A DNA stretch of 64,000 bases from a virus. Taxonomy: Duplodnaviria; Heunggongvirae; Uroviricota; Caudoviricetes. The stretch is taken from the IMG/VR virus record IMGVR_UViG_3300025887_000009. One strand, written 5' to 3'. Below the pieces are notes generated by a model. The model was given only the letters and a program-made list of their open reading frames with translations. It made no database searches and was not told the DNA's origin. Below, piece after piece: positions 25,305-58,975 of the stretch; position 1 is the first letter of the stretch, and each line of letters begins with the position of its first letter. The position numbers and the translations under genes were made by a program.

Positions 25305-25312
25305 TATTTATT
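25305..25312 (-). promoter_or_regulatory. T4-type late promoter (AATAAATA)
   Basis: Overlaps the stop of the 4991-aa gene; 23 nt upstream of ATG 25281. Confidence 0.6.
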
Positions 25313-28300: not shown

Positions 28301-31300
28301 TAAATATTAATTGAGATCCGGATGCAGTAAACGACTCTGTTTCGTCGATATTAGTAACATAATAATTACCGCTTGTTCTGTCAAATTTAACAGCAATATG
28401 TGTTCCTCTAATAGGTGATCCGCCAAGAATAGCACTTGCTCTAGCAGCAGTGCTTCCTTGGACATCTTGAATCTCAACAACCGGCGCTGATGTATATCCT
28501 GTGCCCGATGCCGTTACTTCGATCTTATTAATTTTTCCAGAACTAACAAACGCTCTTGCTGTAGCACCGGTCCCGCCGCCGCCGACAAGTTTAACTACTG
28601 GACGTTGCGAATAACCGCTGCCACCATCTTTTATTTTAATTTCTGTTACTTCAAATCCAACCGCATCAAGCCATTGTTTAAACGGATTAGATCTTGTTCT
28701 GTCTGTAACACCAATTAATTCTCCGTCACGAATTTTTACATTATGCGGAATGATTTTCTTATCTGCATCACTGTATGACGGAAATAAGTCAAAGTCAGTA
28801 ACAACAGACTGCGAACTATCAAAGCCATCATACGAAGACACGTATTCGCGTATTTTTGTCTTATACGGTTTGACTTCGTTAATATATTCTTCGTAACTTG
28901 GCAGGTTATCGTTTTGGAATGTAATTTTTTGCTTTAGGTCGCCAACGTTGTGCTGTGCCTTAACAAAACTTGTCTTAAACGCCCAATCTACATAACCTTG
29001 TTCCGAGAATACATAACGCAAACTTACAAAGAATAATCTGTTATATTCAATTTCTAAATCGTTAACAAGGATCTTGTCACGCAGTATTTCAAGAATTTTA
29101 CGTGTTTCAATTACAGGCTCGCTGTCATAAAGTGTAATATCAAAGTTAGACACGTCATAACCAACCTGACCTGACGCTGGATCATAAAGTGTGCTCAGGA
29201 ATTTAATTGTCCCGTTTTGACGTCCGATTGTTTCATAGTTAACACTGTAATCAACAGTATCCTGGTTATCAATTTTTCTAAGTAATAACCATCCACCGGA
29301 GCCTACATTACGAATCTTGACAATATCGTTTATGCTGTCGTTTAATGCAGTAAGTTCGTATGCTTCATCTATAGTAAACGTAATTTGTGTAAATTCGTTA
29401 TAGCTAGCAGCATACCAATCAACATACTCCCAGTAAGCAGTTACGTCAAACTCTTGAGAACGTCTACGTTCCCATTGACGAAGTGTTTCGTTAAACGAAT
29501 AGATACTCCACTTGTCTGCAATAGTTGCATCAGAATTAACTAATGCAGAGAATCGACGTACAATAATAGTTGTCGTATTGTCATATCCGGTTCCTTGGTC
29601 TGTTATTATTACATCAGTAACTTGTCCAATTCCGTTAATAACTATTTCAAACTCGGCATCTATACCTTTGCCAATAAGTTCATACGTTGGTGTTCTAGCA
29701 TAGCCGCGACCTGCTGACACAATTTCGACGCGAATAATGCGACCGTCCTCAATAACAGGTGCTAGCACTGCTCTTTCAAGTCTTGCTGTACCAACAGTTG
29801 TTAGCTCGTCAAGCGAATCAACAGTTGCATCGAATGTGTTTGTAGCAGTAGTCGGCGCAGGATCTTGTTGATCTAGTAAACTGATATCATAACTGTCAAC
29901 TATAAGGTTTTCTTTAAGTACTGAGTTAGTGTATTCAATTACTTGCTTTAGTGCTTCATTGCGATTTACAAACCAGCCTTGACGTGGGCTGTTTAGTGTA
30001 CCGTATTTTACTTTCGGGCTTAACTCCGGGTCCGGAACATCTCTGAAGAATCGATCTTTGCCTACTAACGAATCAAACCATTTAGCTTCAATATCGCGCT
30101 TCGGCTTAGAGTCTTTTAATCCATCTGTAAGAAGTTGATATTCGGTATGAATATTCATGTCTTTGTTGTCTAGTTTCCATTTTTGGAAATTGATTACAAC
30201 ATCAGTATTTTCTAAGAATCCTTCGAGGTTGTTTATTGCAAACTTATTACCGGTTAGCAATGACACAAACCTGTATCGTTGTCCAAACGGATTAGCAATC
30301 AATGCAGCAATATCAAACACGTTAATCGAACGGAACTCTACTCTTGGTATAGTTACTTTTCCTAATACCCAGAAATAGTATTTCTCTGAGAATGTTTTAG
30401 TTACCGGATTGTATTTTGTTTTAACAGTGTAAGCAGAATTTCCGTATTTTGATGTTCCGCTTATGCCCGCAGCAAGTCCTTCGTCGGTGCCAGCTACTGC
30501 ATCCCATGCTGACGGAATTACATTACTCTCAACCCATTCATAAACATCAATCGACGCGCCGGTGAATAATTTATTCCATGAGTTAGACTGATAGATTACG
30601 TCGCCTTGGTACGGATTAACAAACAATGCTGTTGATAAGTCCCACCAAACCCGTCCGACATAATTTTCAGCCCAATGATCTGTTCCGTCTAGTGTAACAC
30701 CTGTTAAATCTGTATCTAGATTATAAATTGCTGGATCGTATTTTGTCTTATAAGTAATGTCCTGATCTGCTATTCCTGCTATCTTTCCTTGTATAGGATC
30801 AATATAATCTACCGAAGTTAGGTATTCATTTGAACGCTTATTGTACAAGAACGAGCTTTTAATACTCGAAATATCGACAGGATCAACAGGCGCTCTATGA
30901 ACCATCCAGGAATTTTCTGTTTTCGGACGTCTGTAGTCTAATAACATACCTTCAAATGCATCACTAACTAGCGCTCTAGGAATGCCAATGTAAACGTGGT
31001 TGTCGTTGACTAACACATTCTCACCAAAGAATGTTAAATCAGTTGACATATCATCAAATGCAAACGATGTTGCATGAAGAAGTGTGTCATTTATTTTTTC
31101 ATAAAGTTGCACCAAGCCTGTATCAAATTCAACTTGAGTATAACGTGTAAGTCTTTTATCAAAATATGTTGCATCACTATCAAACGTAGTCGGTTGTTTG
31201 ATATCGCCTGCAAGACTTGTTACAGCAAGTTGTGTGTTATCAAACGATAATTTATAACCAAACTTTTCTGCTTCTTCGTTACTGTTACTATAAAGTGTTT

Positions 31301-34300
31301 GAGTTAATTCAAACACTCCGTTAATTTGAGCATAAATGTAAACACGTCCTTGATCAGTTCTGCGAGTGTCGTCGTAAGGTTCGCCAACAGCAATCATAGT
31401 TCCGTTGCCTGACATTCCAACTGATTCGCCGTAACCTGTGTTGTCAGCAGTTGCAGGAATAGTCTGCGACCATACAAAATGATCGCCTATCCTACGGTAA
31501 ACTTCAACGCTTGATTGCTTTACACTATCGTTGCCCGTAAGTTTCGATGATACTGCAAGTACGTCGCCTTTATCAGATACATCAAAATCATATGCAAAGT
31601 TTATTATGCCGCCGCCTGGAGAGAATACATTATCGTTGACGTTCTGTGCTGGATTATTTGGAATAAATCCTAAGTATGAAACATCGCCAGTAGTTATTTC
31701 CCAATCAGTTGTATCAAATTCACTACCGGACGCAATATTTGTAATAGCACGATATATGCTTGATTCAAATTCAACAAGTTCGTCTTCTTTATAGAAAACG
31801 TCATTCTTAAATTCTCCACGATAATTACGATCCTTGCCTCTTTCCCAACTATAAGTTACGCTATCGCGAGTTCCGTTAAATATATAATGTATTTTTCCCG
31901 AGTTATCAATTGTGTCATTGCCGCCGGATGCAATAAACGCAGTGTAAAGATTGTCGTGTTTGGTTATTTTGATTTTTTCACCAAAGCGAGAATCATCAAC
32001 TGAATCAACAGTAGTGTATGATCCTCTGTAGACAAAGGATCCAATTGAATCTTTTTCATAAACAGAATACATACCTTGATTTGTGTACGTGCTTGCTTCG
32101 CCAAATTCAGTTACTTCAACGTTGTATACTTGTTCCCAATCGATGTTATTTGACGAAGGAATATTAGGCAATCTTGCAACACCAGATACATTAAATAGTT
32201 CTGTGTAGAACCAATATTCTTCACCAATTAATGCATCAGTTGCAGGTACTTCAATATCTACAAGAGTATCAACTACTATTAATTTACCAATGGTATCATT
32301 TGCTAGAGACGTTTGTAATATTTCTCCCATAATTCTGTCAGGAGAATCTTGACGAATAATTTCTGCCGTGTTGCCAAACACGCTGCCATTGCTCCAATTA
32401 CCAGTTACTGATTTTACATAGATTCTAACATTATCAAACACTCTTTCGTAATGTGTAATTTCGGCAGTTGCGCCTGTTACTGCGTCTCTCACTACATCAT
32501 TAATACTTGGTTCGTAAGGATCACCGATTGTTGTATCACCGTCTGTGTCAATTGTTTGGAATTTTGTAAATTTAAAATCAATATATCCGTCCCACACATC
32601 ATTAACAGTTAATTCGTTATCGAAATATGTAGGTGAAAAATTAAGTGATGCAATATCGGCTGTGTCGTTAATAAACAATCTAAATGTATCACTTGCAGAA
32701 AGCGAATCTCCGGGCACCGTACGAATTACCCAACGAGAATCTAATTGATCTGTTAACGTAGGAGCATCGCCCGGGTCGCCCTGATGAGAAAGTACTGCTA
32801 AGAATGATGCTTCTTCGTTTTTGTTTACAGGTGTTCCGATGTCTCTGACATTTTCAAGAATGTTGTAATAGAAATTAGTATCTCTAATTTCGTCATCTTT
32901 GATTATATCCTGGAATATTAATCCTCTACCTTCGTCGGTGTAACTATCAGCTGTGTTTACGTAAGACGGAGTTGTAATTTGGAAATAGCCGCCTAGTCCA
33001 GCGCCTGCATCGTAATTAGGTATTATGTAATCACCGATAACGGTAGTATCATTAATAAATAATTCTCCAACTTCGGAGAAAGTACCACTTAACGTATTTA
33101 AATATATAGTTGCTGATCCGTTACTTTCACTTATATAGCTAATTGTACCGCTTGCTTCAGATGAAGAAACAGTATCTCCAACTTCAGGAAGATTAATCCA
33201 CGCATCTAAATAAACAATATGATCAATCTTTGCTTGCACTTCATGCAAATCATTTATAAAGCTACTATCAATAACATTAATTTGATTATCAAATGGTTGG
33301 AATTCTACAGCAGCATCATTAAATGAATTCGAGTAACGGTTCCAATGCAATGCCAACGAATCGCCAACTGCTACACCTTCGAACATATCAAAAGGCATCC
33401 TAACAAGAATATGGTCTACCGTAGTATCAGGAAGATTATAATTGCCCAATGTTAACAGATTAATTACAGTAGAATCTGATCTTGTAGAAATGTCTTCGTA
33501 ACTATCAAATGTCGAGAATAGGATATTATCAGTTGCACCCTCGATTTTTGTTCTAGCTTTCCATAGACTTTCTAAATAACTTACTACTTGATTTTTAGTA
33601 TAATCGCTAGTTTCATCGTAATCGCCCGTATACCGTGTCTTAATATTAGAAGCATCTGGCGAACCTACTAGCAACCACTTGCCGTCAGGTGATACTGCCA
33701 CTGATGCACCAAATCTAGGAATACCTGATATTATATTAGGTTCAGGCGTTAATGCTTCTTTGAAGACTAAGTTGTTGCTATCTGAACTACGGGTATAAAT
33801 TCGAACAATTTCTGATCCAGGTGCACCAACTGCCATGATCTTATTATCTGCACTAGAAGATATAGCTGTTGCAAATCCGTCGTCGCTGCTGTCAATTTCA
33901 GCAGGATTGATTATTACTGTTTGCTCTACATGCTTTTTAGAATTCTTAAATACTGTCCAGTTGTTGTTAAATGCATCATCAATCCAGACGATATCGCCAT
34001 CCGTTAAGCCACGCGATTGTAATGCAGTATTTGCTTCTTGTATATTTGCAAATCGAACTTTTTCAAATTTAGAAATAAATCCATTACTTACTTTTTGCTG
34101 CTCTTGCGGCGCAGAAGAATCTCCAAATGTTTGTGCCGGACTGTATGCATCAACGGGTGTTAGATTGTCCGAGATAACAACAAGACTGTTTGCCACTACA
34201 TCCGTTACTTCATAAAAACCTTCGCCGGTTGTTACATTCATTATACCAATAATATCACCTTCTTCAAAATCAGAAGATTTATTAAGTGTAATTCTCTTTT

Positions 34301-37300
34301 CTGAATTTGACCCGGCACTAATTGATTCTATTTCGTATTCAGTTGAAATATACTTGTAAATATTCCATGTAGTCGGATCATCTCTGCCAACCCATACATA
34401 ATGCCCGCTTTGAAGTAAGTTAAACGGAATATCAAGAATGTCCTGATATTGAAATACTCTAAATTCTGCATCATCTGTGTGAACATATCCCGCCGTCGGA
34501 ACAAATTCTTCCACTTTTTGCATAGTAACAAACGGAACGTGATCGTAATCTTTGCTCTCAAGATATGTTTCGCCTTCTTTAATTTTATAAACAAGACGTG
34601 TATCTTCGGTGTCAACTACATTAGTCAATTCTATCGGCTGCGGCGACAATGTAAATTTAGATTCATCTAATGCATATTCAAATTCGTCGTATTTGTCTAC
34701 AGCACCTATTTGTCCAACTCTTAATGCCCATTCTTCATAGAATTCTAAGCTATCTTTGTCTGCCGCTGCAAGTGCATCAAATAACTTTGTAAGACTGTTT
34801 GCTGATCCTTTGTCTGCAATAAATCCTTGATAAAATTTATATTGACTAATGTCGTCATTAATAATGTTCTTTAGGTATTCTCTATCTTGATAACCAATAA
34901 GGTGTTGTGCAAATCTTTGCTGTTCGTCATCAAAGTTGTCGCTGTCTAAGCTATAGAAATCAGCAAATTCACTTATCTTAAAGTCAAAGTTAGTACGAAG
35001 TTTTGATTCAGGACGCTTAGATAATCTGCTCCAGTCGCTTGCAACAAATGTGTCGGACCCTGAAATCTTGTTATTTGCTGAATAGTAAAATTCTTTGTAC
35101 TTTACAAGATCACCGATTGCATAATCTTTGTTTTCTTCCCATTGGGTAGTTCTTGCATCATCGTAGATGAAACCAGGAATGTTTAATCCGCCTGTCCAAT
35201 TATCTGAACGGTAGCCTACAACCTTAATTCTTTCTTGACGGTAACCTGCTTCTGGATCATAAATGATGTCATTAAATTCAGTACGGTTGTCAAGCAGCAA
35301 TACATGTTCTTTTTGCACAAGGGGCAGCTTAATATTAAACACGCCGTCTTCCGTAGCACTAGGCAATAAGATAAATTCGTTTTGATTAGTGCGAACACGG
35401 TTAGTAAAGTCTTCAATAAGTTTCTGACCATCTGCCTTATACACACTGTAATCATAAAAGTTGTCAAAGATGTCATCAACAACAGAGAATTTCGATTGCA
35501 TCTTAACCTGAAATGCGCCAGGGCTTAATGTAATAACAGAACCTTCTTGCCAGTTTTGTGTCGTCCAGAACAAGAATTCCTTAGAAGACTGCAACCAGTC
35601 TTCAGTAACAGAGATGTCTGAATTAAAGTAATCAAATTTGAAACCTTGTTCTTCAAGGTACTCTTGATATCCTAATAAAAAGTCAACAACTTCTTGAATG
35701 CTGCGCAATAGCGTGCCATATGGCAGACTTTGCTCTCTTCTTTTATTAAATTTCTTGCGCACAAATACAGTTTGGCCGCCTTCGATGGGCAGTTCAGCTA
35801 ATTTAGCAAACTTGTCATCATCAAAATTAGTGCTACTAGTATGTGCTATTTTTGTTCTGTAATACAATCCTGCATATCTTACAACTTGTCCAACAACATA
35901 CACTTTTCTCTCGGTCCAATCTGAAAACGCTGAGGAAATGCCGCCGATGTTAATAACCGGGTCGTTGTCTAATTCGTAAGCTTGATAATATTTAAATGCA
36001 GGTGCATTTTTGTCATAGCCTCTAATAATATAACCCGCGGCGCGTTTTTCAATAATTGCGCCAGAGTAATTTACTACCTTAATAGGAGAACTTGTATTTA
36101 GGAAGATATTATAGTTTTCCTTTGGTACAAGAACATTGCTTTTGTTAAATGGTGTTTTAGAGTCAAGTACTAATTCAAATTTTGACTTGTCTGTAAATCC
36201 ACCTATCTTAGCTGCCATTTGGTTAGTGATAGATGTTAGATTATTTTGGTATGTTGTGTAACTTAATAACACAGAACTAGCTAGGTAGTTGTACATGCAG
36301 TTTACTAAGCCAGATGCTAATATTCTTCGATCTGCTTCTACGTTGTTAGGGAATACCAAATCACTCAAACGAATTTGTTCTTGAGACGGAGTATAAACCA
36401 AGTGTCCTGCAATATCGCGTTCGATTCTTGAAATATCAAAACCTACACCGAACATCTTAGTCGGCTGATTAATAACCCAAGATGTAATTAAACTAAACGG
36501 ATACTCAGATGAACGTCTCCATGCAGTTTCAGTCGGTGCTTGGTCACCAAAAGTATAATCTGATACAACAAGATTTGAAATATAACCTCTTGCATAACTA
36601 GATTCCAACGGGCTCAATAAACGACCTTGGTCGTCTACGGGAAGGTGTTCTAATATTCCTGGACGGGCATATTTTTCTAAGTATCGGACAGGCATGCCGG
36701 GTTGTCTAACGATTCCTTGATCAATGTCTTCCCATAGCACAAGGTTGTTGCTAGTGTAAGGCGCCGGTCCGTATACGTCTTGCCACCAAGATGGCATGAT
36801 TGTAAAACCAAGCATTTCCCAAGGATGAGAATGAGGACGGTCGGTGTCATATGCATCTTTGTAAACAGCACGCCAAAAGCCTGGCAACGGGTTGCCGCTC
36901 GGAGATGCCATATATTTGTAGTTGTACGTAAATGATGCAGAACGCTCAAAATATGTATTTGATGTAAAGTCTGCACTTCCGACAATATCAAGCCACTGCG
37001 TAAAATCGTAAACCATTGCATCTTCGCGAGTTTTACGCGAATATGCCGATTCGCGGAATTCACTTCCGACAAAATCGGTTAAATCTAATATGTCGGTGTT
37101 GTATGACTGCTTTAGGTTGTTATAAATTCTAGTTTCTAATTCAAGAAGCAAGTCATCACGATAGTCATCATACGCAACAATAATACTACCGTCGTGACCT
37201 TGAATTACTGTTTGTGTTTCTTGGTAAGTGTCGTCGTTAAATATCGACGGGCGGTAAGCCGGATACAATCCTAATTTTGTAGGAGTCGGCGGCATGTAGC

Positions 37301-40283
37301 AACCGTCTGTTGTTTCGTATTCGCAAATATCAATTATATCATTTAATGATTTGTCAGCTGTAATAACACAGAAGCCGTCTTCGTTAAATGTGTAATCTTT
37401 GCCGTGCACAAGCTGCACACCGTTAAGGTATACTAGAACTGCGTGAGAAGATAGTTCATTTAATGTAAACACTTCCGACAATGCAAAGAATTCGTTTCGT
37501 GGATCAACTACTTTGTATTCTAATTTCTTCGCAGATCCTGTAGGTACCATATCCGAGAAGTAAAACGGCATTGTATTTGTTTTACTTTTGTTCATTTCTG
37601 CAAGAATTAAATCTACGTGAGTACGAGTGTCGCCATCGTAACCTAGATCAAACGCTGTTTGAAAAAATACTCTCTTAAATTTAGCGTACTCTGCTCTACC
37701 ATAACGAAGAGCTTTAACCATGTTGTGCTCTTTGCTAGTAATATGATAGTTTGCAAGGTTTACAGGACCACTGTGCTTCACAAATAACTTGCCGTATTGA
37801 TCTACTTCGCCTAAATCACGAAGGTTTGATGTTCCTAAAAATACGCCGTCAAATCCAATTGCTTCTTCGACAATGGAACTTACATGGTCATTAACCTCAC
37901 CAAGAGTAAATTCAGTTAGGTTATTATTAAGAGGATTGCGTTCTAAGTTAGCAGCAATTTCGTAATAGCCATTTTCATTCTTTGGAGTTGCACTTGTAGT
38001 TTTAATAACAATTCTATCATCTGCTACTACATCTTCAAAGAACTTAATAACCGCAGTTTGATTAACTCTATTAATTTCATAATCTTTTTCAAAGAATTGA
38101 ATAGCGTTGTTCTTATATACCCAAACTTTTAGATCATTTAAATCACCTGATTTATCGTAAACGTCGACTGCAAAATCGTTTGTTTGTTCTGTACCAAAAT
38201 ACTGACGTACAACTTTTTGTTTGCTTAGTTCTTTACCTTTTGTCCAGCCATTAACATACGAAAACTTATCTAAGTCAGTATACTTTCTAATATAAGCTGT
38301 CTTACTTGCTATTTCAACTAATCTGTTGTTTGACGAATAATTGTATGTTTCATTTAACAGGTTAAAATCAAATGTAATGTCGCCTATGTTTTCAAACGCT
38401 CGATAACTTAATGAAAATCCTAGTTCATTATCTACAATTCCTGAACCTCTTTTATAAGAATAGATAGGGTTGCCGCGGAAGTTAGATGCAATATAAGTCG
38501 TTTCATCGGAGAACGACACACCATCTTTATCAAATAAGTCAAACAACGGATCTTGATTAACTGACGTTTTCTCTTGTCCTAATACCCATGTTTCGCCATT
38601 AAAGTAATAGATCTGTCCTGCGTTTTCTACGCCGTCTCGAACTAATACTGTTTCGTTTGTAATAGGATTAGAATCGTCAACTTCTATAAGTGCAATTTGA
38701 GTATTGTTATTTTCTGTAATAAAACGTACTTCATAAATTCTATTACGAACTAAAATATCTGTGTCAGCAGTAAACAAAATTCTTTGTCCTTCTGATACAG
38801 TGACTCCATCGATATTATAACCTATTGACCCTTCAATTGTAGAAAACACATCTTGTGTAAAATTGTCAATTAAATCAATATCTTCTTTTGCTTTAGAACC
38901 AAATTGAAACAGCTTTAGGCCTGCTTCGAATTCAATAATAGGACGTTTTGCTCTTGCCGATTGATCTATTTCTGCTATAGTACCATTAACTGTGGCAGAT
39001 GTTTCAATAACACTTCGGTGGAACCAACGGTTATAACGTGTCCATGCGTTTCTGTCAAGGCTGGCACGGTTAATTATAATATAATCTTTTATGCCTGCAT
39101 AAGAACTAGAATTACCAAACGGTAACGTATCAAACCCTTCGGTATCAAAAGGAACTAAGAGATCCTCAGAATAAGCAGCAGGAATTTCAAGATCCTTTGT
39201 ACTAATAAGTACAATCTTTGATCCTACTCCTTCAACATACCATTCTCCGGTTGCATATTTTTCAGGAGTAACATCGCCTTGGAAATAAACTTTCATTCCG
39301 TTTGACAATGCATAATTTGCAGAAGTAGTATACGAACTCTTGCCTAGTATTTCTGCTTCTACATCGATTTCTGTATTTTCTTCAATGTCATAAAGAGTAA
39401 CAAAGCCACTTATGTTTATGTCATTCTTTGAAATGTAGTATAGTTTATCAGGTGCATTCTCTGGCACAGTGAATTCGATAACTCCGTTTGTTACATAATC
39501 ATCATCAACTTCGTTCATGTCAACATCAAATACTTTTATACCATCACTGTAAAGTGTTGAAACATTTGTTAGCTCTTGACTAAATTCAGGAGAAGGATTG
39601 GTTGGAACAAATGATCTACTTGTAGAAAAAGTAAACGGATGACCCGGTGTGTTGATTTCAAATCTATAAGTCTGACCTTTGTACAATTTAAGTGTCGGAT
39701 TAGGAGTAAATCCGTTTGGAGAAAAGATGTAAGCTAACGAATCGGTTTGGTCTTCTAATGTCACTGAATAAGTGCTTTGTACGTCTCTGCTTTGTCCTGC
39801 TACAGAAACTGCCTGAGGACCGTTTGGCAACCAGTAGTATTCACGGAAATTTGTAAACTTGTCCCAATCAATTCCAGGGTTCCATGCATAAAATTCCTGT
39901 GCGTTAACAGTGCTATGATTACTAGTGTTTGAATTAAACGCTGTAAGTTGATTCATAAAATCTTGATAATCTTTGAAGAAATTTACATTACCAAGATCAT
40001 CTTTAATTACAGTCGCAGGCTCAAACTGATAATCAGTTCGTTGCTTTGTAGCAGCACCAACATAATTATCGTCTGCTATTCTAGCTTTAGACACCTGGCG
40101 TCCGATGTAACCCGAAAGCTTTTCGGCTACTCCGGGTTGAATCATTTGATCTAACGTCGATTCTAGAAATTTTTCATTCGTAGGTGTGCGGAAAAATCTA
40201 GGAAGAAATTGCGTAGATTTTACAGTTTTCTTATTTGAGTCTGGCTCAATTGGAAATTCTTTTTGGTCATCGTTATATGCCAT
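25308..40283 (-). CDS. giant 4991-aa virion structural protein (baseplate wedge/fibre, gp7-like position)
   Basis: Uninterrupted 15-kb ORF directly after gp6; FG-GAP-like repeats, CBM5/12-like W/Y-x5-Y-x-x-G motifs, GGSGY...GGGG.GA.A.A repeats and F.GDG.T..F.L repeats. Confidence 0.8.
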   Translation of the reverse strand: MAYNDDQKEFPIEPDSNKKTVKSTQFLPRFFRTPTNEKFLESTLDQMIQPGVAEKLSGYIGRQVSKARIADDNYVGAATKQRTDYQFEPATVIKDDLGNVNFFKDYQDFMNQLTAFNSNTSNHSTVNAQEFYAWNPGIDWDKFTNFREYYWLPNGPQAVSVAGQSRDVQSTYSVTLEDQTDSLAYIFSPNGFTPNPTLKLYKGQTYRFEINTPGHPFTFSTSRSFVPTNPSPEFSQELTNVSTLYSDGIKVFDVDMNEVDDDYVTNGVIEFTVPENAPDKLYYISKNDINISGFVTLYDIEENTEIDVEAEILGKSSYTTSANYALSNGMKVYFQGDVTPEKYATGEWYVEGVGSKIVLISTKDLEIPAAYSEDLLVPFDTEGFDTLPFGNSSSYAGIKDYIIINRASLDRNAWTRYNRWFHRSVIETSATVNGTIAEIDQSARAKRPIIEFEAGLKLFQFGSKAKEDIDLIDNFTQDVFSTIEGSIGYNIDGVTVSEGQRILFTADTDILVRNRIYEVRFITENNNTQIALIEVDDSNPITNETVLVRDGVENAGQIYYFNGETWVLGQEKTSVNQDPLFDLFDKDGVSFSDETTYIASNFRGNPIYSYKRGSGIVDNELGFSLSYRAFENIGDITFDFNLLNETYNYSSNNRLVEIASKTAYIRKYTDLDKFSYVNGWTKGKELSKQKVVRQYFGTEQTNDFAVDVYDKSGDLNDLKVWVYKNNAIQFFEKDYEINRVNQTAVIKFFEDVVADDRIVIKTTSATPKNENGYYEIAANLERNPLNNNLTEFTLGEVNDHVSSIVEEAIGFDGVFLGTSNLRDLGEVDQYGKLFVKHSGPVNLANYHITSKEHNMVKALRYGRAEYAKFKRVFFQTAFDLGYDGDTRTHVDLILAEMNKSKTNTMPFYFSDMVPTGSAKKLEYKVVDPRNEFFALSEVFTLNELSSHAVLVYLNGVQLVHGKDYTFNEDGFCVITADKSLNDIIDICEYETTDGCYMPPTPTKLGLYPAYRPSIFNDDTYQETQTVIQGHDGSIIVAYDDYRDDLLLELETRIYNNLKQSYNTDILDLTDFVGSEFRESAYSRKTREDAMVYDFTQWLDIVGSADFTSNTYFERSASFTYNYKYMASPSGNPLPGFWRAVYKDAYDTDRPHSHPWEMLGFTIMPSWWQDVYGPAPYTSNNLVLWEDIDQGIVRQPGMPVRYLEKYARPGILEHLPVDDQGRLLSPLESSYARGYISNLVVSDYTFGDQAPTETAWRRSSEYPFSLITSWVINQPTKMFGVGFDISRIERDIAGHLVYTPSQEQIRLSDLVFPNNVEADRRILASGLVNCMYNYLASSVLLSYTTYQNNLTSITNQMAAKIGGFTDKSKFELVLDSKTPFNKSNVLVPKENYNIFLNTSSPIKVVNYSGAIIEKRAAGYIIRGYDKNAPAFKYYQAYELDNDPVINIGGISSAFSDWTERKVYVVGQVVRYAGLYYRTKIAHTSSTNFDDDKFAKLAELPIEGGQTVFVRKKFNKRREQSLPYGTLLRSIQEVVDFLLGYQEYLEEQGFKFDYFNSDISVTEDWLQSSKEFLFWTTQNWQEGSVITLSPGAFQVKMQSKFSVVDDIFDNFYDYSVYKADGQKLIEDFTNRVRTNQNEFILLPSATEDGVFNIKLPLVQKEHVLLLDNRTEFNDIIYDPEAGYRQERIKVVGYRSDNWTGGLNIPGFIYDDARTTQWEENKDYAIGDLVKYKEFYYSANNKISGSDTFVASDWSRLSKRPESKLRTNFDFKISEFADFYSLDSDNFDDEQQRFAQHLIGYQDREYLKNIINDDISQYKFYQGFIADKGSANSLTKLFDALAAADKDSLEFYEEWALRVGQIGAVDKYDEFEYALDESKFTLSPQPIELTNVVDTEDTRLVYKIKEGETYLESKDYDHVPFVTMQKVEEFVPTAGYVHTDDAEFRVFQYQDILDIPFNLLQSGHYVWVGRDDPTTWNIYKYISTEYEIESISAGSNSEKRITLNKSSDFEEGDIIGIMNVTTGEGFYEVTDVVANSLVVISDNLTPVDAYSPAQTFGDSSAPQEQQKVSNGFISKFEKVRFANIQEANTALQSRGLTDGDIVWIDDAFNNNWTVFKNSKKHVEQTVIINPAEIDSSDDGFATAISSSADNKIMAVGAPGSEIVRIYTRSSDSNNLVFKEALTPEPNIISGIPRFGASVAVSPDGKWLLVGSPDASNIKTRYTGDYDETSDYTKNQVVSYLESLWKARTKIEGATDNILFSTFDSYEDISTRSDSTVINLLTLGNYNLPDTTVDHILVRMPFDMFEGVAVGDSLALHWNRYSNSFNDAAVEFQPFDNQINVIDSSFINDLHEVQAKIDHIVYLDAWINLPEVGDTVSSSEASGTISYISESNGSATIYLNTLSGTFSEVGELFINDTTVIGDYIIPNYDAGAGLGGYFQITTPSYVNTADSYTDEGRGLIFQDIIKDDEIRDTNFYYNILENVRDIGTPVNKNEEASFLAVLSHQGDPGDAPTLTDQLDSRWVIRTVPGDSLSASDTFRLFINDTADIASLNFSPTYFDNELTVNDVWDGYIDFKFTKFQTIDTDGDTTIGDPYEPSINDVVRDAVTGATAEITHYERVFDNVRIYVKSVTGNWSNGSVFGNTAEIIRQDSPDRIMGEILQTSLANDTIGKLIVVDTLVDIEVPATDALIGEEYWFYTELFNVSGVARLPNIPSSNNIDWEQVYNVEVTEFGEASTYTNQGMYSVYEKDSIGSFVYRGSYTTVDSVDDSRFGEKIKITKHDNLYTAFIASGGNDTIDNSGKIHYIFNGTRDSVTYSWERGKDRNYRGEFKNDVFYKEDELVEFESSIYRAITNIASGSEFDTTDWEITTGDVSYLGFIPNNPAQNVNDNVFSPGGGIINFAYDFDVSDKGDVLAVSSKLTGNDSVKQSSVEVYRRIGDHFVWSQTIPATADNTGYGESVGMSGNGTMIAVGEPYDDTRRTDQGRVYIYAQINGVFELTQTLYSNSNEEAEKFGYKLSFDNTQLAVTSLAGDIKQPTTFDSDATYFDKRLTRYTQVEFDTGLVQLYEKINDTLLHATSFAFDDMSTDLTFFGENVLVNDNHVYIGIPRALVSDAFEGMLLDYRRPKTENSWMVHRAPVDPVDISSIKSSFLYNKRSNEYLTSVDYIDPIQGKIAGIADQDITYKTKYDPAIYNLDTDLTGVTLDGTDHWAENYVGRVWWDLSTALFVNPYQGDVIYQSNSWNKLFTGASIDVYEWVESNVIPSAWDAVAGTDEGLAAGISGTSKYGNSAYTVKTKYNPVTKTFSEKYYFWVLGKVTIPRVEFRSINVFDIAALIANPFGQRYRFVSLLTGNKFAINNLEGFLENTDVVINFQKWKLDNKDMNIHTEYQLLTDGLKDSKPKRDIEAKWFDSLVGKDRFFRDVPDPELSPKVKYGTLNSPRQGWFVNRNEALKQVIEYTNSVLKENLIVDSYDISLLDQQDPAPTTATNTFDATVDSLDELTTVGTARLERAVLAPVIEDGRIIRVEIVSAGRGYARTPTYELIGKGIDAEFEIVINGIGQVTDVIITDQGTGYDNTTTIIVRRFSALVNSDATIADKWSIYSFNETLRQWERRRSQEFDVTAYWEYVDWYAASYNEFTQITFTIDEAYELTALNDSINDIVKIRNVGSGGWLLLRKIDNQDTVDYSVNYETIGRQNGTIKFLSTLYDPASGQVGYDVSNFDITLYDSEPVIETRKILEILRDKILVNDLEIEYNRLFFVSLRYVFSEQGYVDWAFKTSFVKAQHNVGDLKQKITFQNDNLPSYEEYINEVKPYKTKIREYVSSYDGFDSSQSVVTDFDLFPSYSDADKKIIPHNVKIRDGELIGVTDRTRSNPFKQWLDAVGFEVTEIKIKDGGSGYSQRPVVKLVGGGGTGATARAFVSSGKINKIEVTASGTGYTSAPVVEIQDVQGSTAARASAILGGSPIRGTHIAVKFDRTSGNYYVTNIDETESFTASGSQLIFNLEYPLDLRTTTIEILVNGQEALRSEFAFENILDTSKGYDRHQGRVTFADPPAINSTVVINYKKNISMLQAQDRVNFFYNPVTGQYGKDLSQLMNGIDYGGVEVKSFGFSGAGGWDNEPWYSGTWDTYDTTFEDEIFTLDGSTISVELSKPLEDGIQYNIYRNGVRIDEDSDSSFVNPNALTETITGDGIIDTIDLQDKGIPAGDGDVIIIRKSTSDGSFTPDPSSYDTLLSGGDLAYTTAKGIAAEQIIVDGDGFVTPTTSGGPEELVPGQILDTLDIQVYDKTGDGGSNIYTANFTSDGTTVVYELGIRPNARDAVFIRFNNTIQDSSSYSINWGNNTVELDTAPSAGTQINIVVLGEAGAKVLDLRTFVGDGSTTQFSTSARFSNDLTYNVLVDGIETEVTLTKNVKGNEVEFIADGSNSFTVTFNPTTDTQIFVNGVEQLEEFYQTDISMDEFGNNVYNIIFVNNFPSIGSVVTVYNNVGNVDVNFLQTPEEGTDIRCVIYQDTADSFSAVKLEEFTGDGSTTAFTLAQAPFTNTPLRYNVLVEVDGTMLSAGYTQRFTVVESREYLVEQWQMPAGTVQTSNVEAYINGVKLEQTVTWRWDTFNSSVVLFDSVGNAGDELVVYILDDGEYTLEGSTLTLNETPASDAKIKVWQFSNHNILDIKRKTYNVVTREPVTEGTADYATYQDLTNGIVKLFDTAIDAQYVWVTLNGEFLSPLVDYALSVDNNYININRVINDNDVIDFMQFTANVSTTPFGYRQFKDMLNRTHYKRLDSSNACTLAEELNWYDLRIELTDASSLPIPSKESNIPGVLFVDGERIEYFIKEGNTLRQIRRGTLGTGVKEVYEAGTIMHEQGPGQTIPYTDRALSQTFTADGIKTEYRLDFVTDSVNDMEVFVAGRRLRKGEISIFDNTIAQDSPEGDVTAAAEFTLTSYMADDSTAVTDLVLAEAPADNVSVTVVRKVGKIWAEQGVSLRYADNDIGRFIRAKTVALPE

Positions 40284-56842: not shown

Positions 56843-57298
56843 ATGCAATGGACTTACCAAGGAGACGTAGTTAATGAGCTTCCGGAGGGATGCGAAGGCT
56901 TTGTTTATTTGATAACAAATCTTACAAATCAACGTAAGTACATAGGCAAAAAATTGGCTCGATTTAAAACAACCAAACCACCACTTAAAGGCAGAAAAAA
57001 CAAAAGGCGCGGAACAAAAGAAAGTGATTGGAGAACCTATTGGGGATCTTCGGATAATCTACTAGCTGATGTTGCTGCGATAGGCACAGACAAATTTACT
57101 AGAGAAATTTTATATTTTTGTAAAGGCAGGGGCGAAATGTCCTACATAGAGGCAAGAGAACAGTTTGATAGACGAGTACTCGAATCTGATGATTACTATA
57201 ACGGTATTATTAATGTAAGAGTAGGCGGGAGCAATAAATTAAAAAAGGCGCTGTTAGAACATGGCACGAAAACTAAATTGGACAAAGGCACGATCTGA
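56843..57298 (+). CDS. GIY-YIG family nuclease (minimal, single domain)
   Basis: GFVYLITNLTNQRKYIGKK (GIY-x10-YIG variant), R and E residues (EMSYIEAREQ), YYNG. Confidence 0.85.
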   Translation: MQWTYQGDVVNELPEGCEGFVYLITNLTNQRKYIGKKLARFKTTKPPLKGRKNKRRGTKESDWRTYWGSSDNLLADVAAIGTDKFTREILYFCKGRGEMSYIEAREQFDRRVLESDDYYNGIINVRVGGSNKLKKALLEHGTKTKLDKGTI

Positions 57299-57569
57299 TA
57301 CTATTAAAAGTGAACTTATTAGTTCACAATTACACGAATCAAATGCAAATTCCGACAAGTACTTTAAATTTAAAGCTAATGTAACAACACAACACAAACT
57401 GTTAGAAGAAGGCATTTGGCCTACTGGCAAACATACAGGCACTAAGATATCTAAACTAAGCGAAAAATATTTGGTATGGGCTGGATTAAATTTAAAATCT
57501 AAACATATAAAATATGCTGCAAACAAAGAGCTACTTAGAAGATATCATTCAGGCGAAATCAAACTATAA
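57261..57569 (+). CDS. hypothetical protein with DUF3820-like motif
   Basis: WPTGKHTGTKISKLSEKYLVW resembles the MPFGKYKG..I..LP..YL.W motif; overlaps the GIY-YIG gene by 38 nt. Confidence 0.55.
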   Translation: MARKLNWTKARSDTIKSELISSQLHESNANSDKYFKFKANVTTQHKLLEEGIWPTGKHTGTKISKLSEKYLVWAGLNLKSKHIKYAANKELLRRYHSGEIKL

Positions 57570-58010
57570 ACCTTAGGCAAAACAATCCAACACATAAGGT
57601 TAGCGGGCCAGATTAGAAATACCGCCGTGGAAAAAGCTCTCGTATAGAAGCACACGTACATACTGATGGACCTATCTACAAACTTGGGGTCTCCGTTGGT
57701 ATAGATTGATTGTTGGCAATTGAGAAACACAAACACAGTTCATAAAAACCCTTTAGCATCAGGAACGAAGCGAGGGAAGCAGTGTTAGTAGTTATTACTA
57801 TCTGAATGTGATTAGAAATAAACATATTCAAATAAAAATAACTGCTGACATTGTATGTCGACGTAGGTTGGGAAAGGTCAGAGCCCATTGAACTTTGTGT
57901 ATAAACAAATACCTATTTCCGTATCTCGGCTGAATAAGACTCACATGAAGTTTTTTGAGAGGGGCGGGACCGTAACAGGTTCCGTCTGACCAAAACGATC
58001 TACATGAATA
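57569..58010 (+). ncRNA. candidate large structured ncRNA
   Basis: ORF-free region with many stems containing G.U pairs on the + strand: 57783-57796/57837-57850 (14 bp, 2 GU), 57803-57810/57823-57830, 57863-57868/57911-57916, 57963-57971/57978-57986 (GUAACA loop), 57663-57668/57757-57762; possible pseudoknot GGUCAG 57876-57881 with CUGACC 57986-57991. Boundaries approximate. Confidence 0.65.
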
Positions 58011-58019
58011 TATCACTTC

Positions 58020-58042
58020 GTTATTACGCATCGCGTAATAAC
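58020..58042. repeat. perfect 10-bp inverted repeat
   Basis: GTTATTACGC-atc-GCGTAATAAC. Confidence 0.9.
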
Positions 58043-58108
58043 TACGTTAGGTTTGTACAAGTAAAGTATTAACTGTTTGTATAGAGTAGTTTAAAGAAAA
58101 GAAATTAT

Positions 58109-58149
58109 GTATTGAGCGATAGCGAAATACAGATGTACGTAGTACATCT
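58109..58149. repeat. two adjacent hairpins
   Basis: GTATT-gagcGATAgcga-AATAC (58109-58130) and AGATGTAC-gta-GTACATCT (58131-58149). Confidence 0.85.
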
Positions 58150-58209
58150 AACATAATTGCTTGTATACCTTAATAGTCTTAAATGCCTAATCACGAATAG
58201 TGCATCTGA

Positions 58210-58217
58210 CATAAATA
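58210..58217 (+). promoter_or_regulatory. T4-type late promoter (CATAAATA)
   Basis: 26 nt upstream of ATG 58244. Confidence 0.6.
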
Positions 58218-58243
58218 CTTTTGATGATTAAGGATTTGAACGA

Positions 58244-58975
58244 ATGAAAGTTAATGAACTGAATGAGATTGGCATGCCTGCATTTACTGCTAGACAAAAA
58301 GCAATGAAAAAAGGCAAGCAAGAAGTAGCTGACAAAGTTAAACTTATGACTAAGCACATCTATATGATGATGGGTAAAACTAATACTAAAGAATTGACTT
58401 ATGGAAAGCTTGGTGCTTTCCTAAAGAACACACCTCATTACGCTAAGTTCCTTAAAGATCCTGATGTAGCTGGTGTTGTTGCAAATGAGTTTAGTGGTAA
58501 TGCTGCTTCGTCTGGTGATGGTGATGCTACAGATCCTGCTTTTAAATCGTCAAGAGGTGCAGGCAAATTTAAATCAAGTCGCGGTGCTCCGAAATTTAAG
58601 TCATCAAGAAATCAACCAGAACAACCTCAATTTAAATCTCGTAGAAATAATATTGTAGATAAAAACTTTGACAAGAGTCAAAAACTTTCAGCTTATGGAA
58701 AAGTTGGCAATGAATCAATTGTGCACGAAGCAGTAGATCCTAATACTCCTGTTGACAAGAAGCAGTTACAAAAAATAGCAACTATGCTAGTTCAAAAGTC
58801 TTTTGAAGATCCAGATGGGCCTAATGGTTTGGCTGGAGGTACTAAAAAATCCGGTTCGAAAAAGATTCCTAAGTCTGTTTCAAAAGAACCAATGGATGAT
58901 CCTAACGTGCAAAAGGCAGTTAAGATTTTAAGAAAAGCAGGCATAACTGGCGTAAGAATACTTCCAGGAGATTAA
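58244..58975 (+). CDS. hypothetical basic protein with FKSSR repeats; possible internal head protein
   Basis: Late-type promoter CATAAATA 58210-58217; MKVNELNE N-terminus; four FKS(S/R)R repeats. Confidence 0.7.
   Translation: MKVNELNEIGMPAFTARQKAMKKGKQEVADKVKLMTKHIYMMMGKTNTKELTYGKLGAFLKNTPHYAKFLKDPDVAGVVANEFSGNAASSGDGDATDPAFKSSRGAGKFKSSRGAPKFKSSRNQPEQPQFKSRRNNIVDKNFDKSQKLSAYGKVGNESIVHEAVDPNTPVDKKQLQKIATMLVQKSFEDPDGPNGLAGGTKKSGSKKIPKSVSKEPMDDPNVQKAVKILRKAGITGVRILPGD
58541..58645 (+). repeat. coding tandem repeat FKS(S/R)R x4
   Basis: FKSSRGAGK FKSSRGAPK FKSSRNQPEQPQ FKSRR; codons differ between copies. Confidence 0.9.

What the first reader, a model, noticed from the sequence alone, without database searches (positions are those of the whole stretch)
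57569..58010. Candidate novel large (about 440 nt) ornate ncRNA with pseudoknot
Seen: the only long ORF-free stretch in the window, and packed with helices: AACCTTA 57569-57575/TAAGGTT 57595-57601; GCGG/CCGC 57603-57625; CTGATG 57663-57668/CATCAG 57757-57762; a 14-bp stem 57783-57796/57837-57850 enclosing an 8-bp stem; GTAGGT 57863-57868/ACCTAT 57911-57916 enclosing TGGG/CCCA and TTTGT/ACAAA; TCTCGG/TTGAGA 57924-57960; a 9-bp GC-rich stem with GUAACA loop 57963-57986. Loop GGUCAG (57876-57881) is exactly complementary to CUGACC (57986-57991). Imperfect pairs are repeatedly G.U on the + strand (A.C on minus), which favours selection on + strand RNA. ACATGAA occurs twice near the 3' end. Known: phages carry large ornate RNAs of unknown function (GOLLD, ROOL). 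I cannot assign this one to a family.
Basis: partly seen in the sequence, partly recalled or inferred. Interest (0 to 1): 0.85.

Follow-up and report, generated by a model that had tools for sequence, protein, structure and literature searches.

The report
New pseudoknotted RNA of aquatic jumbo phages
This gap holds a real, previously uncatalogued RNA gene of about 430-475 bases, folded into many helices and at least two pseudoknots. It is conserved in more than 150 uncultured freshwater and marine giant-phage contigs, and its function is unknown.

Summary
Window 57575-58008 (+ strand) is the only ORF-poor gap of 400 nt or more in the window. It folds far better than shuffles on the + strand only (z -4.4 against +0.5).

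It is conserved at one syntenic site in at least 150 IMG/VR contigs. That site lies after gp47/gp46 and a small nuclease gene, and before a hypervariable island.

Comparative analysis of 74 sequences below 93% identity supports about 85 base pairs:
- 93% of cells are canonical.
- There are 166 two-sided compensatory events, against 6-20 when the partners are slid.
- The 19 best covarying pairs out of 66,430 column pairs all lie in the model.

Two pseudoknots are proven by covariation: 57587-92 with 57711-16, and 57727-42 with 57889-900. The two ACAUGAA copies covary perfectly.

No Rfam 15 family matches the window or ten relatives. There is no conserved ORF, no tRNA or tmRNA, and no match in GenBank phages.

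Other first-stage readers of this scan flagged the same family on other DNA.

Best reading: a new class of large structured phage ncRNA, read through from the upstream operon and acting in trans. The mechanism is inferred, not shown.

The parts
57575..58008 (+). Conserved body of the ncRNA (type A: 5' domain 57587-57721, linker, 3' core 57727-58008)
   Evidence: nhmmer hits E down to 1e-129 in 165 loci. Alignment A1. No conserved ORF and no 3-periodicity.
57587..57592 (+). PKa 5' strand CCAACA. It pairs with UGUUGG 57711-57716, the loop of P5, to form a pseudoknot.
   Evidence: 443 of 444 cells canonical (73-74 of 74 per pair). Variants CCAACA/UGUUGG, ACAGCA/UGCUGU, CUAACA/UGUUAG, GCAACA/UGUUGC. 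18 two-sided events.
57601..57627 (+).
   Evidence: GCGG/CCGC changes to GCCC/GGGC, GUGG/CCAC and GCAG/CUGC.
57627..57655 (+). P2.5 (57627-29/57653-55) enclosing P3 hairpin (57636-41/57647-51, bulged C57639)
   Evidence: 57628/57654 is U-A in 66 and A-U in 8. P3 57636/51 and 57637/50 show 6 and 9 two-sided events.
57660..57702 (+). P4: conserved base 57660-66/57696-702 with a tip of variable length
   Evidence: 29 two-sided events in the base. 57668/57694 shows 10 events.
57704..57721 (+). P5 hairpin (57704-08/57717-21). Its 8-nt loop AUUGUUGG carries the PKa 3' strand.
   Evidence: 15 two-sided events. RNAalifold.
57727..57742 (+). PKb 5' strand (ACACAAA 57727-33 plus GUUCA 57738-42). It pairs with 57889-57900 (UGAAC plus UUUGUGU) inside the P8 junction to form a pseudoknot.
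   Evidence: 57738-42/57889-93: 27 two-sided events, 96-100% canonical per pair. 57730/57897 is C-G in 41 and G-C in 19. Type B has UAUGCUAC/GUAGCAUA and L024 has ACGA..CCCC/GGGG-UCGU. RNAalifold picks it too.
57749..57776 (+). P6 hairpin (57749-53/57772-76, 57756-57/57770-71) with 12-nt loop AUCAGGAACGAA. GGAACGA is invariant.
   Evidence: 20 two-sided events. Invariant columns.
57779..57854 (+). It ranges from GCGAAAGC to about 75 nt in relatives.
   Evidence: Closing pair 57780/57853 shows 15 two-sided events.
57855..57862 (+). Invariant junction AUGUCGAC, containing the palindrome GUCGAC
   Evidence: Invariant columns. The only variants, GUCGAU and GUCGGC, keep self- or alternative pairing.
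57863..57916 (+). P8 (GUAGGU 57863-68 / ACCUAU 57911-16) closing a junction. The junction holds P9 (UGGG 57869-72 / CCCA 57884-87, loop AAAGGUCAGAG) and the PKb 3' strand.
   Evidence: 57864/57915 is U-A in 67, G-C in 4 and C-G in 3. The alternative GUAGGU/AUCUAC is not compensated.
57924..57960 (+). P10 (57924-29/57955-60), with GGCUG bulge, optional inner helix and invariant 12-nt loop ACUCACAUGAAG (57939-50)
   Evidence: Variants GUCUC/GAGAU, GUCUU/AAGAU, GUCUA/UAGAC, GUCA/UGAC.
57963..57986 (+). P11, a 9-bp hairpin with loop GUAACA
   Evidence: 57971/57978 is C-G in 66 and U-A in 8, with many G.U exchanges. 69-74 of 74 canonical per pair: 74 of 74 for the six inner pairs, 69-73 for the three basal pairs.
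57986..57991 (+).
   Evidence: Never broken in 74 or 102 sequences. Only G-C to G.U changes, and C57879U gives U.G. No two-sided change.
58002..58008 (+). Second ACAUGAA copy in the 3' tail. CAUG 58003-06 may pair with CAUG 57944-47 (PKd).
   Evidence: A57945 and A58004 both become G in 3 lineages and never change singly.
58020..58042 (+). 3' hairpin (GUUAUUACGC / GCGUAAUAAC). Relatives have a covarying hairpin capped by UUCG or UACG at this place. It is the likely 3' end or stability element.
   Evidence: The simple terminator scan did not call it.
56843..57298 (+). GIY-YIG nuclease gene (151 aa, catalytic domain only), the conserved upstream neighbour
   Evidence: PF19835 at 5.6e-34. Orthologs 66-77% identical lie directly upstream in 152 of 153 loci.
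57261..57569 (+). 102-aa ORF inserted between the nuclease gene and the RNA in this window. It is absent from the relatives examined.
   Evidence: Weak phrog_3628 match.
58112..58127 (+). TTGAGCGATAGCGAAA motif followed by a hairpin. It is conserved downstream of the RNA in relatives.
   Evidence: single copy in the window.

Best explanation
Window 57575-58008 (+), probably running on to the hairpin at 58020-58042, is the gene of a new class of large structured non-coding RNA. It is carried by an uncultured clade of aquatic jumbo phages whose nearest isolates are PA5oct, Phosso and Atu_ph07.

Shown:
- The + strand RNA folds into a 5' domain (P2-P5). This domain is locked by a pseudoknot between CCAACA and the P5 loop.
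- It also folds into a 3' core (P6-P11). The core is locked by a bipartite 12-bp pseudoknot that crosses the P8 junction.
- Four invariant loops or junctions are left unpaired: GGAACGA, AUGUCGAC, AAAGGUCAGAG and ACUCACAUGAAG. So is an invariant 3' tail.
- The 3' core is shared by a second subfamily (type B) that has a different 5' domain.

Inferred:
- The RNA has no promoter of its own. It is read through from the gp47-gp46-nuclease operon and ends at, or is protected by, the 3' hairpin.
- It then acts in trans as a stable folded RNA rather than as a leader of the next gene. Its invariant single-stranded loops would be the working surface.
- The most likely mode is binding of a protein partner or of further copies of itself, in the manner of other phage-borne ornate RNAs. 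Catalysis is a smaller possibility.
For: Homologs and position:
- Homologs were found in 165 loci. They sit at the same position and on the same strand.

Structure:
- 85 modelled pairs are 93.2% canonical, with 166 two-sided events. Slid partners give 35-39% canonical and 6-20 events.
- The top 19 of 66,430 column pairs all fall in the model.
- RNAalifold predicts 45 pairs, 24 of them compensated.
- Folding is strand-specific.

Not coding and not catalogued:
- There is no conserved ORF and no codon periodicity.
- There is no Rfam hit.

Not a leader of the next gene:
- The downstream genes differ between relatives.
- A covarying hairpin separates them from the RNA.

Read-through from upstream:
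- In relatives the nuclease stop codon lies inside the conserved 5' block.
- In this window a 102-aa ORF is inserted between the two, yet the block AGGCAAAAC... is kept.
- No promoter-like site exceeds chance.
- Contigs from RNA libraries bridge the upstream ORF and the RNA: X19 record 12 and X32 record 16.

Presence in RNA libraries:
- Pieces of the core occur in 4 laid RNA libraries, among them a 1.17-Mb 454 marine library.
Against: - No transcript ends, strand or abundance could be shown. All runs were contigs.
- In X18 the flanking genes are covered at about the same depth, so DNA carry-over or plain read-through is not excluded.
- The 3' hairpin lacks a U-tract and was not called as a terminator.
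- Nothing tested here tells binding, oligomerisation or catalysis apart.
- A nuclease gene always precedes the RNA. That could mean a functional coupling which this reading ignores.
Confidence: 0.6

Rival explanations
1. The RNA is the cofactor or guide of the nuclease encoded just upstream. That nuclease is a catalytic-domain-only GIY-YIG enzyme without a DNA-binding module, and the RNA would give it target specificity or regulate it. The layout resembles TnpB with its omega/reRNA, which overlaps the 3' end of the nuclease gene.
For: - GIY-YIG lies directly upstream in 152 of 153 loci.
- Its stop codon lies inside the RNA's conserved 5' block.
- The protein is only about 150 aa.
- In L024 a different nuclease (PD-(D/E)XK, PF24608, 1.6e-27) takes the same place.
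- Sequence after the conserved 3' tail is variable.
Against: - All loci are one syntenic site in one phage clade, so co-occurrence is not independent evidence.
- A 71%-identical GIY-YIG ortholog sits in cultured Methylophilales phage Melnitz-3 in another gene context, and no RNA homolog occurs anywhere in that genome.
- The PF19835 / phrog_447 family is common in cyanophages and coliphages.
- In this window a 102-aa ORF separates the gene and the RNA.
- The variable 3' part forms a hairpin, not a free guide.
- GIY-YIG and PD-(D/E)XK nucleases fit equally well as the junction-cutting member of the gp46/gp47 recombination module, or as homing endonucleases parked beside a conserved target.
Confidence: 0.1
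2. It is a cis-acting part of the operon transcript. It could be a 3' UTR structure that blocks 3' exonucleases or sets mRNA decay or termination for gp47-gp46-nuclease. Alternatively it could be a sensor that controls read-through into the variable island.
For: - It lies at the 3' end of a + strand operon with no promoter of its own above chance.
- Bridging contigs occur in RNA libraries.
- A hairpin follows it.
- GUCUGAC has three exclusive invariant partners, which would suit a switch.
Against: - About 430 nt, with at least two pseudoknots and over 100 invariant positions, is far more than known 3' stabilisers or terminators need.
- No riboswitch family matches.
- The downstream genes are unrelated between relatives.
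- The insertion of an ORF upstream is tolerated.
Confidence: 0.15
3. It is a ribozyme, either self-processing out of the operon transcript or acting on another RNA.
For: - It has a pseudoknotted core with many invariant unpaired nucleotides, as in RNase P, group I introns and glmS.
- It seems to need release from a longer transcript.
- GGGAAAGGUCAG followed by a long-range helix loosely recalls RNase P CR-I/P4. This resemblance is from memory only.
Against: - No match to any ribozyme model at E<=10.
- No tRNA genes in the 187-kb contig.
- No interrupted host gene.
- No cleavage site can be inferred.
Confidence: 0.08
4. The conservation acts on DNA. The element could be an origin of replication, a recombination or packaging site, or just the recognition site of the neighbouring homing-type endonuclease.
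For: - It lies beside recombination genes and a GIY-YIG gene that looks horizontally mobile, being 71% identical in an unrelated phage.
- It borders a hypervariable island, and many contigs break there.
Against: - Compensatory changes that keep pairs, G.U tolerated on one strand only, and folding that is strand-specific are signatures of RNA, not of a DNA site.
- The cumulative GC-skew minimum lies 4-5 kb away, at the strand switch.
Confidence: 0.03
5. It is a very divergent member of a known family (RNase P RNA, group I intron, tmRNA, GOLLD, ROOL, HEARO/omega RNA, phi29-type pRNA), or a decayed protein gene.
For: - Large phage RNAs such as GOLLD and ROOL exist.
- The - strand has stop-free runs with a median of 79 codons.
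Against: - cmscan of 4227 families gives nothing at gathering score for the window and ten relatives. At E<=10 only miRNA or snoRNA noise appears, on the AU-rich hairpin.
- ARAGORN finds no tmRNA.
- The - strand open runs fall in all three frames (29/29/16) with shifting limits, and variability is equal in the three codon phases.
Confidence: 0.03

Closest known systems
GOLLD and ROOL RNAs (large ornate RNAs often carried by phages or prophages; shown by cryo-EM in 2025 to form RNA-only homo-oligomers, PMC12286853)
   Same: - It is a large, highly structured, multi-pseudoknotted RNA carried by phage genomes with no known biochemical function.
- Many nucleotides in loops are invariant.
- Palindromic invariant single-stranded motifs (GUCGAC, CAUG x2) could mediate self-association. 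That last point is inference.
   Different: - No sequence or structure match to either model.
- It is smaller (about 430-475 nt) than GOLLD or ROOL as I recall them (about 800 and about 580 nt; sizes from memory).
- No neighbouring tRNA genes.
- It has a fixed syntenic site after a nuclease gene.
- It is found in aquatic jumbo phages.
- Oligomerisation was not tested.
TnpB/IscB omega RNAs (HEARO family for IscB)
   Same: - A structured RNA of some hundreds of nt is encoded next to, and overlaps the 3' end of, a small nuclease gene.
- Variable sequence follows the conserved scaffold.
   Different: - The nuclease is GIY-YIG (or PD-(D/E)XK in L024), not RuvC.
- There are no transposon ends.
- It is single-copy.
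- The HEARO model does not match.
- A close ortholog of the nuclease exists without the RNA.
Bacterial RNase P RNA
   Same: - Similar size class.
- Long-range pseudoknot helices.
- A GGAAAG-type motif leads into a long-range helix (resemblance from memory).
   Different: - No RNase P model matches at E<=10.
- No tRNA genes in the contig.
- The helix order is different.
Group I introns of T4-type phages with GIY-YIG homing endonucleases
   Same: - A GIY-YIG gene lies beside a pseudoknotted RNA of some hundreds of nt in a T4-like gene module.
- The pseudoknot topology A..B..A'..B' is shared.
   Different: - No interrupted gene.
- The flanking sequence downstream is variable and non-coding.
- The Intron_gpI model does not match.
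- The nuclease ORF lies outside the fold.

Membership tests
Any Rfam 15 family (includes GOLLD, ROOL, OLE, HEARO, raiA, RNase P, tmRNA, group I/II introns, pRNA, IMES and other marine motifs) | Covariance-model score at or above the curated gathering score | tested here: not met
   0 matches in the 64-kb window and in 10 diverse relatives, 89 kb. At E<=10 only miRNA or snoRNA noise appears on the AU-rich hairpin. A type-B member gives nothing at E<=5.
Group I intron | Interrupts a host gene whose exons join to one reading frame or one RNA | tested here: not met
   The upstream ORF ends at or before the element. The downstream 230 nt is non-coding, and the next genes are unrelated between relatives.
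RNase P RNA | Conserved regions CR-I to CR-V with the P4 pseudoknot, in a genome that carries tRNA precursors to process | tested here: not met
   No RNase P model matches at E<=10. ARAGORN finds no tRNA gene in the 187-kb contig. The contig is only about half the genome.
tmRNA | tRNA-like domain plus a tag reading frame | tested here: not met
   ARAGORN finds none in the window or the contig. No Rfam tmRNA match.
Omega/reRNA of TnpB- or IscB-type RNA-guided nucleases | Adjacent RuvC-type nuclease within a transposon, with a guide segment next to the scaffold | tested here: not met
   The neighbour is GIY-YIG (PF19835) or PD-(D/E)XK. The element is single-copy. The variable 3' part is a hairpin.
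Ornate large phage RNAs as a functional kind (GOLLD/ROOL-like homo-oligomeric RNA) | Self-assembly into defined RNA-only oligomers | not testable with these tools
   The only hints are the invariant palindromes GUCGAC and CAUG.
Conserved structured RNA (general test) | Significant covariation supporting helices on one strand, and no coding signal | tested here: met
   for covariation. for strand. for the absence of an ORF.
Intrinsic terminator at the 3' end | GC-rich hairpin followed by a U-tract | tested here: inconclusive
   A covarying hairpin is present in nearly all relatives. The window's copy (58020-42) has no U-tract, and the scan called nothing on the + strand.

The most novel reading that the evidence does not exclude
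The RNA and the minimal nuclease encoded just before it (GIY-YIG, replaced by PD-(D/E)XK in one lineage) form one system. In it the large pseudoknotted RNA targets, activates or restrains a nuclease that has no DNA-binding domain of its own. That would be an RNA-dependent nuclease of a kind not described so far.
Probability: 0.08. Interest if true: 0.95.

Novelty: categorically new. Interest (0 to 1): 0.82.

Why it matters
Large, intricately folded bacterial and phage RNAs are rare. Each class found so far (RNase P, group I/II introns, tmRNA, OLE, GOLLD, ROOL, HEARO/omega RNA) has turned out to be a ribozyme, an RNP core, a guide or a self-assembling RNA.

This one has unusually clean comparative support, with two proven and two candidate pseudoknots. 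It is widespread in marine and freshwater metagenomes. It sits in giant phages that have no cultured member.

It is a ready target for synthesis, chemical probing and cryo-EM, and for testing against the neighbouring nuclease. It would also add a family to Rfam that marks this phage clade in metagenomes and metatranscriptomes.

Tried and rejected
**Homolog searches that found nothing**
- blastn of 57500-58300 against 50,697 GenBank phage records: no match.
- The search for related loci with the downstream 243-aa protein: no relatives. That gene is not conserved.
- PA5oct and Phosso have gene-poor gaps at the syntenic place. nhmmer and BLAST find no homolog there, nor in the whole PA5oct and Melnitz genomes.
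- The four PA5oct ncRNAs of Lood et al. 2020 (PMC7318152) lie elsewhere.

**Pairings tested and not supported**
- GUAGGU/AUCUAC, the RNAalifold alternative for P8, is broken wherever 57864 changes.
- AGCC/GGCU (57882-85/57928-31) shows no compensation.
It cannot be tested because GAGCCCA is invariant.
- 57769/57991 covary weakly (3 events). This was not pursued.

**Other ideas**
- Origin of replication: the GC-skew minimum is at the strand switch near 53 kb, not at the RNA.
- Own promoter: sigma-70-like hits are not above chance.
- Paralogs in the contig: none.

**Sequencing runs**
- In the one metatranscriptome that holds this same strain (X18), no contig covers 57568-57695 or 57952-58207. 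This says nothing either way.

**Literature**
- Searches for a description of this RNA found none.

- I did not type a dot-bracket string into the count of structure pairs. The same counts and controls were computed in Python instead.
- No covariance model was built.
Full report
**What is there.** The finding lies in a 674-nt gap (57570-58243). The gap sits between a 102-aa ORF and a 243-aa ORF on the + strand. It is the only stretch of 400 nt or more in the window without an ORF of 90 aa or more.

The window is part of a 187-kb IMG/VR viral contig that CheckV rates 53% complete. By its gp46/Rad50-like protein the nearest isolates are the jumbo phages PA5oct, Phosso and Atu_ph07, all below 50% identity. 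One 335-kb contig in a MAG carries the same element.

The gene order around the gap is:
- late sigma factor
- gp47-like phosphoesterase
- gp46-like ATPase
- an 81-aa ORF
- a 151-aa GIY-YIG protein (PF19835, 5.6e-34)
- a 102-aa ORF
- the gap
- the 243-aa ORF
- a baseplate hub on the other strand

**Is it more than chance?** The + strand of 57569-58010 folds to -123.9 kcal/mol, z = -4.37, and none of 100 dinucleotide shuffles does as well. The - strand gives z = +0.49. Of five ORF-poor gaps in the contig, only this one shows a strand-specific excess of folding: -4.6 against +0.7.

**Homologs.** Eighty loci were fetched with the gp46 protein. It also found three MAG contigs.

A profile search finds the element in 165 loci, always on the same side and strand. 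There are two subfamilies:
- Type A is like the window, about 430 nt.
- Type B shares the 3' core of about 250 nt but has another 5' domain.

GenBank phages hold no match. The element is single-copy in its contig.

**Structure.** I worked on 74 type-A sequences below 93% identity (alignment A1). Changes were counted on a FastTree tree by parsimony.

*Pseudoknot PKa.* CCAACA (57587-92) pairs with UGUUGG (57711-16) in the loop of P5. It is canonical in 443 of 444 cells. It occurs in four fully compensated versions, with 18 two-sided events.

*5' domain.* P2, P2.5, P3, P4 and P5 are all compensated. P4 alone has 29 two-sided events.

*Pseudoknot PKb.* A bipartite helix joins 57727-33 plus 57738-42 to 57889-900, which lies inside the junction closed by P8. 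It therefore crosses P8.
- The five inner pairs have 27 two-sided events and are 96-100% canonical.
- Type B has UAUGCUAC/GUAGCAUA at this place.
- L024 has yet another compensated version.

*3' core.* P6, the base of the variable hairpin P7, P8, P9 and P11 all carry compensatory changes. So does P10, judged from anchored extraction.

*Controls.*
- Of 66,430 column pairs, the 19 with the most two-sided events all lie in these helices.
- The 85 modelled pairs are 93.2% canonical with 166 two-sided events. With partners slid by 1-3 columns the figures are 35-39% and 6-20.
- RNAalifold independently predicts 45 pairs, 24 of them compensated, among them PKb.

- Confirmed: GCGG/CCGC, the long hairpin, GUAGGU/ACCUAU, UGGG/CCCA, UCUCGG/UUGAGA, the 9-bp stem, the strand, and the repeated ACAUGAA.
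- Not conserved: 57569-75/57595-601, 57663-68/57757-62 and 57894-98/57905-09.
- The pseudoknot GGUCAG/CUGACC is pairable in every sequence but shows only one-sided changes to G.U. It stays a candidate.
- The same GUCUGAC segment can also pair with the invariant junction GUCGAC and with the base of P11, so a switch is possible.
- The two ACAUGAA copies do interact in some way. A57945 and A58004 both become G in three separate lineages and never change singly. This fits a CAUG/CAUG contact or one factor reading both copies.

**Not coding, not a known family.**
- The longest open runs on the - strand fall in all three frames (29/29/16) with shifting limits.
- Variability is equal in the three codon phases: 0.176, 0.181 and 0.183.
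- Rfam 15 gives nothing at gathering score for the window or for ten diverse relatives. At E<=10 it gives only miRNA or snoRNA noise on the AU-rich hairpin.
- ARAGORN finds no tRNA or tmRNA in the contig.
- Four literature searches found no description.
- The ncRNAs reported for PA5oct lie elsewhere in that genome (PMC7318152).

**Context.** A GIY-YIG ortholog (66-77% identity) lies directly upstream in 152 of 153 loci with enough sequence, and gp46 lies before it. In relatives its stop codon lies about 22 nt inside the conserved 5' block. In this window a 102-aa ORF has been inserted between them, and the block is still kept.

The genes downstream differ from relative to relative. Many contigs end inside the element. 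Both observations fit a very conserved segment at the edge of a hypervariable island.

In L024 the place of GIY-YIG is taken by a PD-(D/E)XK nuclease (PF24608, 1.6e-27).

A 71%-identical GIY-YIG protein is encoded by the cultured Methylophilales phage Melnitz-3. It sits there in a different context, and no RNA homolog occurs anywhere in that genome. So the nuclease family does not need this RNA. The gene may be mobile, or it may be the junction-cutting member of the gp46/gp47 recombination module.

**Expression.** Words of the element occur in DNA runs labelled freshwater and marine. Core words occur in 23 RNA runs of 18 studies. Only four of these runs were laid:
- A metatranscriptome with the identical strain covers the flanking genes and parts of the RNA at similar low depth.
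- A 1.17-Mb 454 marine library holds one contig of a relative's core.
- Two RNA-library contigs bridge the upstream ORF and the RNA 5' end.

All of these are contigs, so strand, ends and level are unknown.

**Reading.**
- Shown: a conserved, + strand, multi-pseudoknotted RNA fold, and independence from the downstream gene.
- Inferred: read-through transcription from the upstream operon, a 3' end at the covarying hairpin (58020-42 here), and action in trans through the invariant loops.

I rank the readings as follows:
- a stable trans-acting RNA that binds protein or itself, with catalysis as a smaller possibility: 0.6
- a cis-acting operon element: 0.15
- a cofactor of the neighbouring nuclease: 0.1
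- a ribozyme as the main function: 0.08
- a DNA-level element: 0.03
- a divergent known family or decayed gene: 0.03

**Novelty.** No curated family and no paper that I could find contains this RNA, so I file it as a new RNA class. In kind it is closest to the large ornate phage RNAs GOLLD and ROOL. It shares neither sequence, nor size, nor context with them. Other first-stage readers of this scan flagged the same family in at least seven other windows. Those notes are unchecked and were used only as leads.

Noticed in passing
window 56843-57298; L201 3498-3938: The 151-aa GIY-YIG protein is 71% identical to a protein of cultured Methylophilales phage Melnitz-3 (Kyanoviridae). The gp46 protein of the window has no GenBank phage match at 60% identity or above, and its best listed matches are PA5oct-like jumbo phages. 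This suggests horizontal transfer of the nuclease gene.
   Followed up: partly
L024 6939-7454: In one relative a PD-(D/E)XK nuclease (PF24608) replaces the GIY-YIG gene directly upstream of a type-B copy of the RNA. This is a non-orthologous nuclease swap at one site.
   Followed up: partly
window 57261-57569: A 102-aa ORF (weak phrog_3628 match) is inserted between the nuclease gene and the RNA. It overlaps the nuclease 3' end by 38 nt and changes the nuclease C-terminus. It is absent from the relatives examined.
   Followed up: partly
window 58112-58150; relatives downstream of the RNA: The motif TTGAGCGnnAGCGAAA(A)C followed by a short hairpin recurs downstream of the RNA in many relatives, often after AACGAAGT. 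It is single-copy in this window. It may be a promoter or regulatory cassette at the start of the variable island.
   Followed up: partly
loci L016, L018, L027, L028, L036, L040, L044, L050, L065, L067, L073, L079, L080, L081: Many metagenome contigs end inside or right after the RNA. This is an assembly break-point, as expected where a near-invariant segment meets strain-variable DNA.
   Followed up: no
L199 7517-9031 (PA5oct); L200 7910-8925 (Phosso): Both jumbo-phage isolates have a gene-poor stretch of 1-1.5 kb in a region that follows gp46. In both, the stretch lies next to a Holliday-junction resolvase gene; in PA5oct it also lies before the baseplate hub. Neither shows sequence similarity to this RNA, and neither was tested for structure.
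   Followed up: partly
window 25308-40283 (- strand): A single ORF of 4991 aa, followed by one of 1154 aa, among structural genes. It was not examined.
   Followed up: no
genome contig C1 4983-6024 (outside the window): Another ORF-poor gap of 1 kb folds somewhat better than simple shuffles on both strands (z -1.9 and -2.9). It was not examined further.
   Followed up: no
L196, L197, L198: Three contigs binned into bacterial MAGs (Crocinitomicaceae, and Neomarinimicrobiota at 335 kb and 153 kb) carry the RNA. They are probably phage contigs binned with cells, and are weak host hints at best.
   Followed up: no
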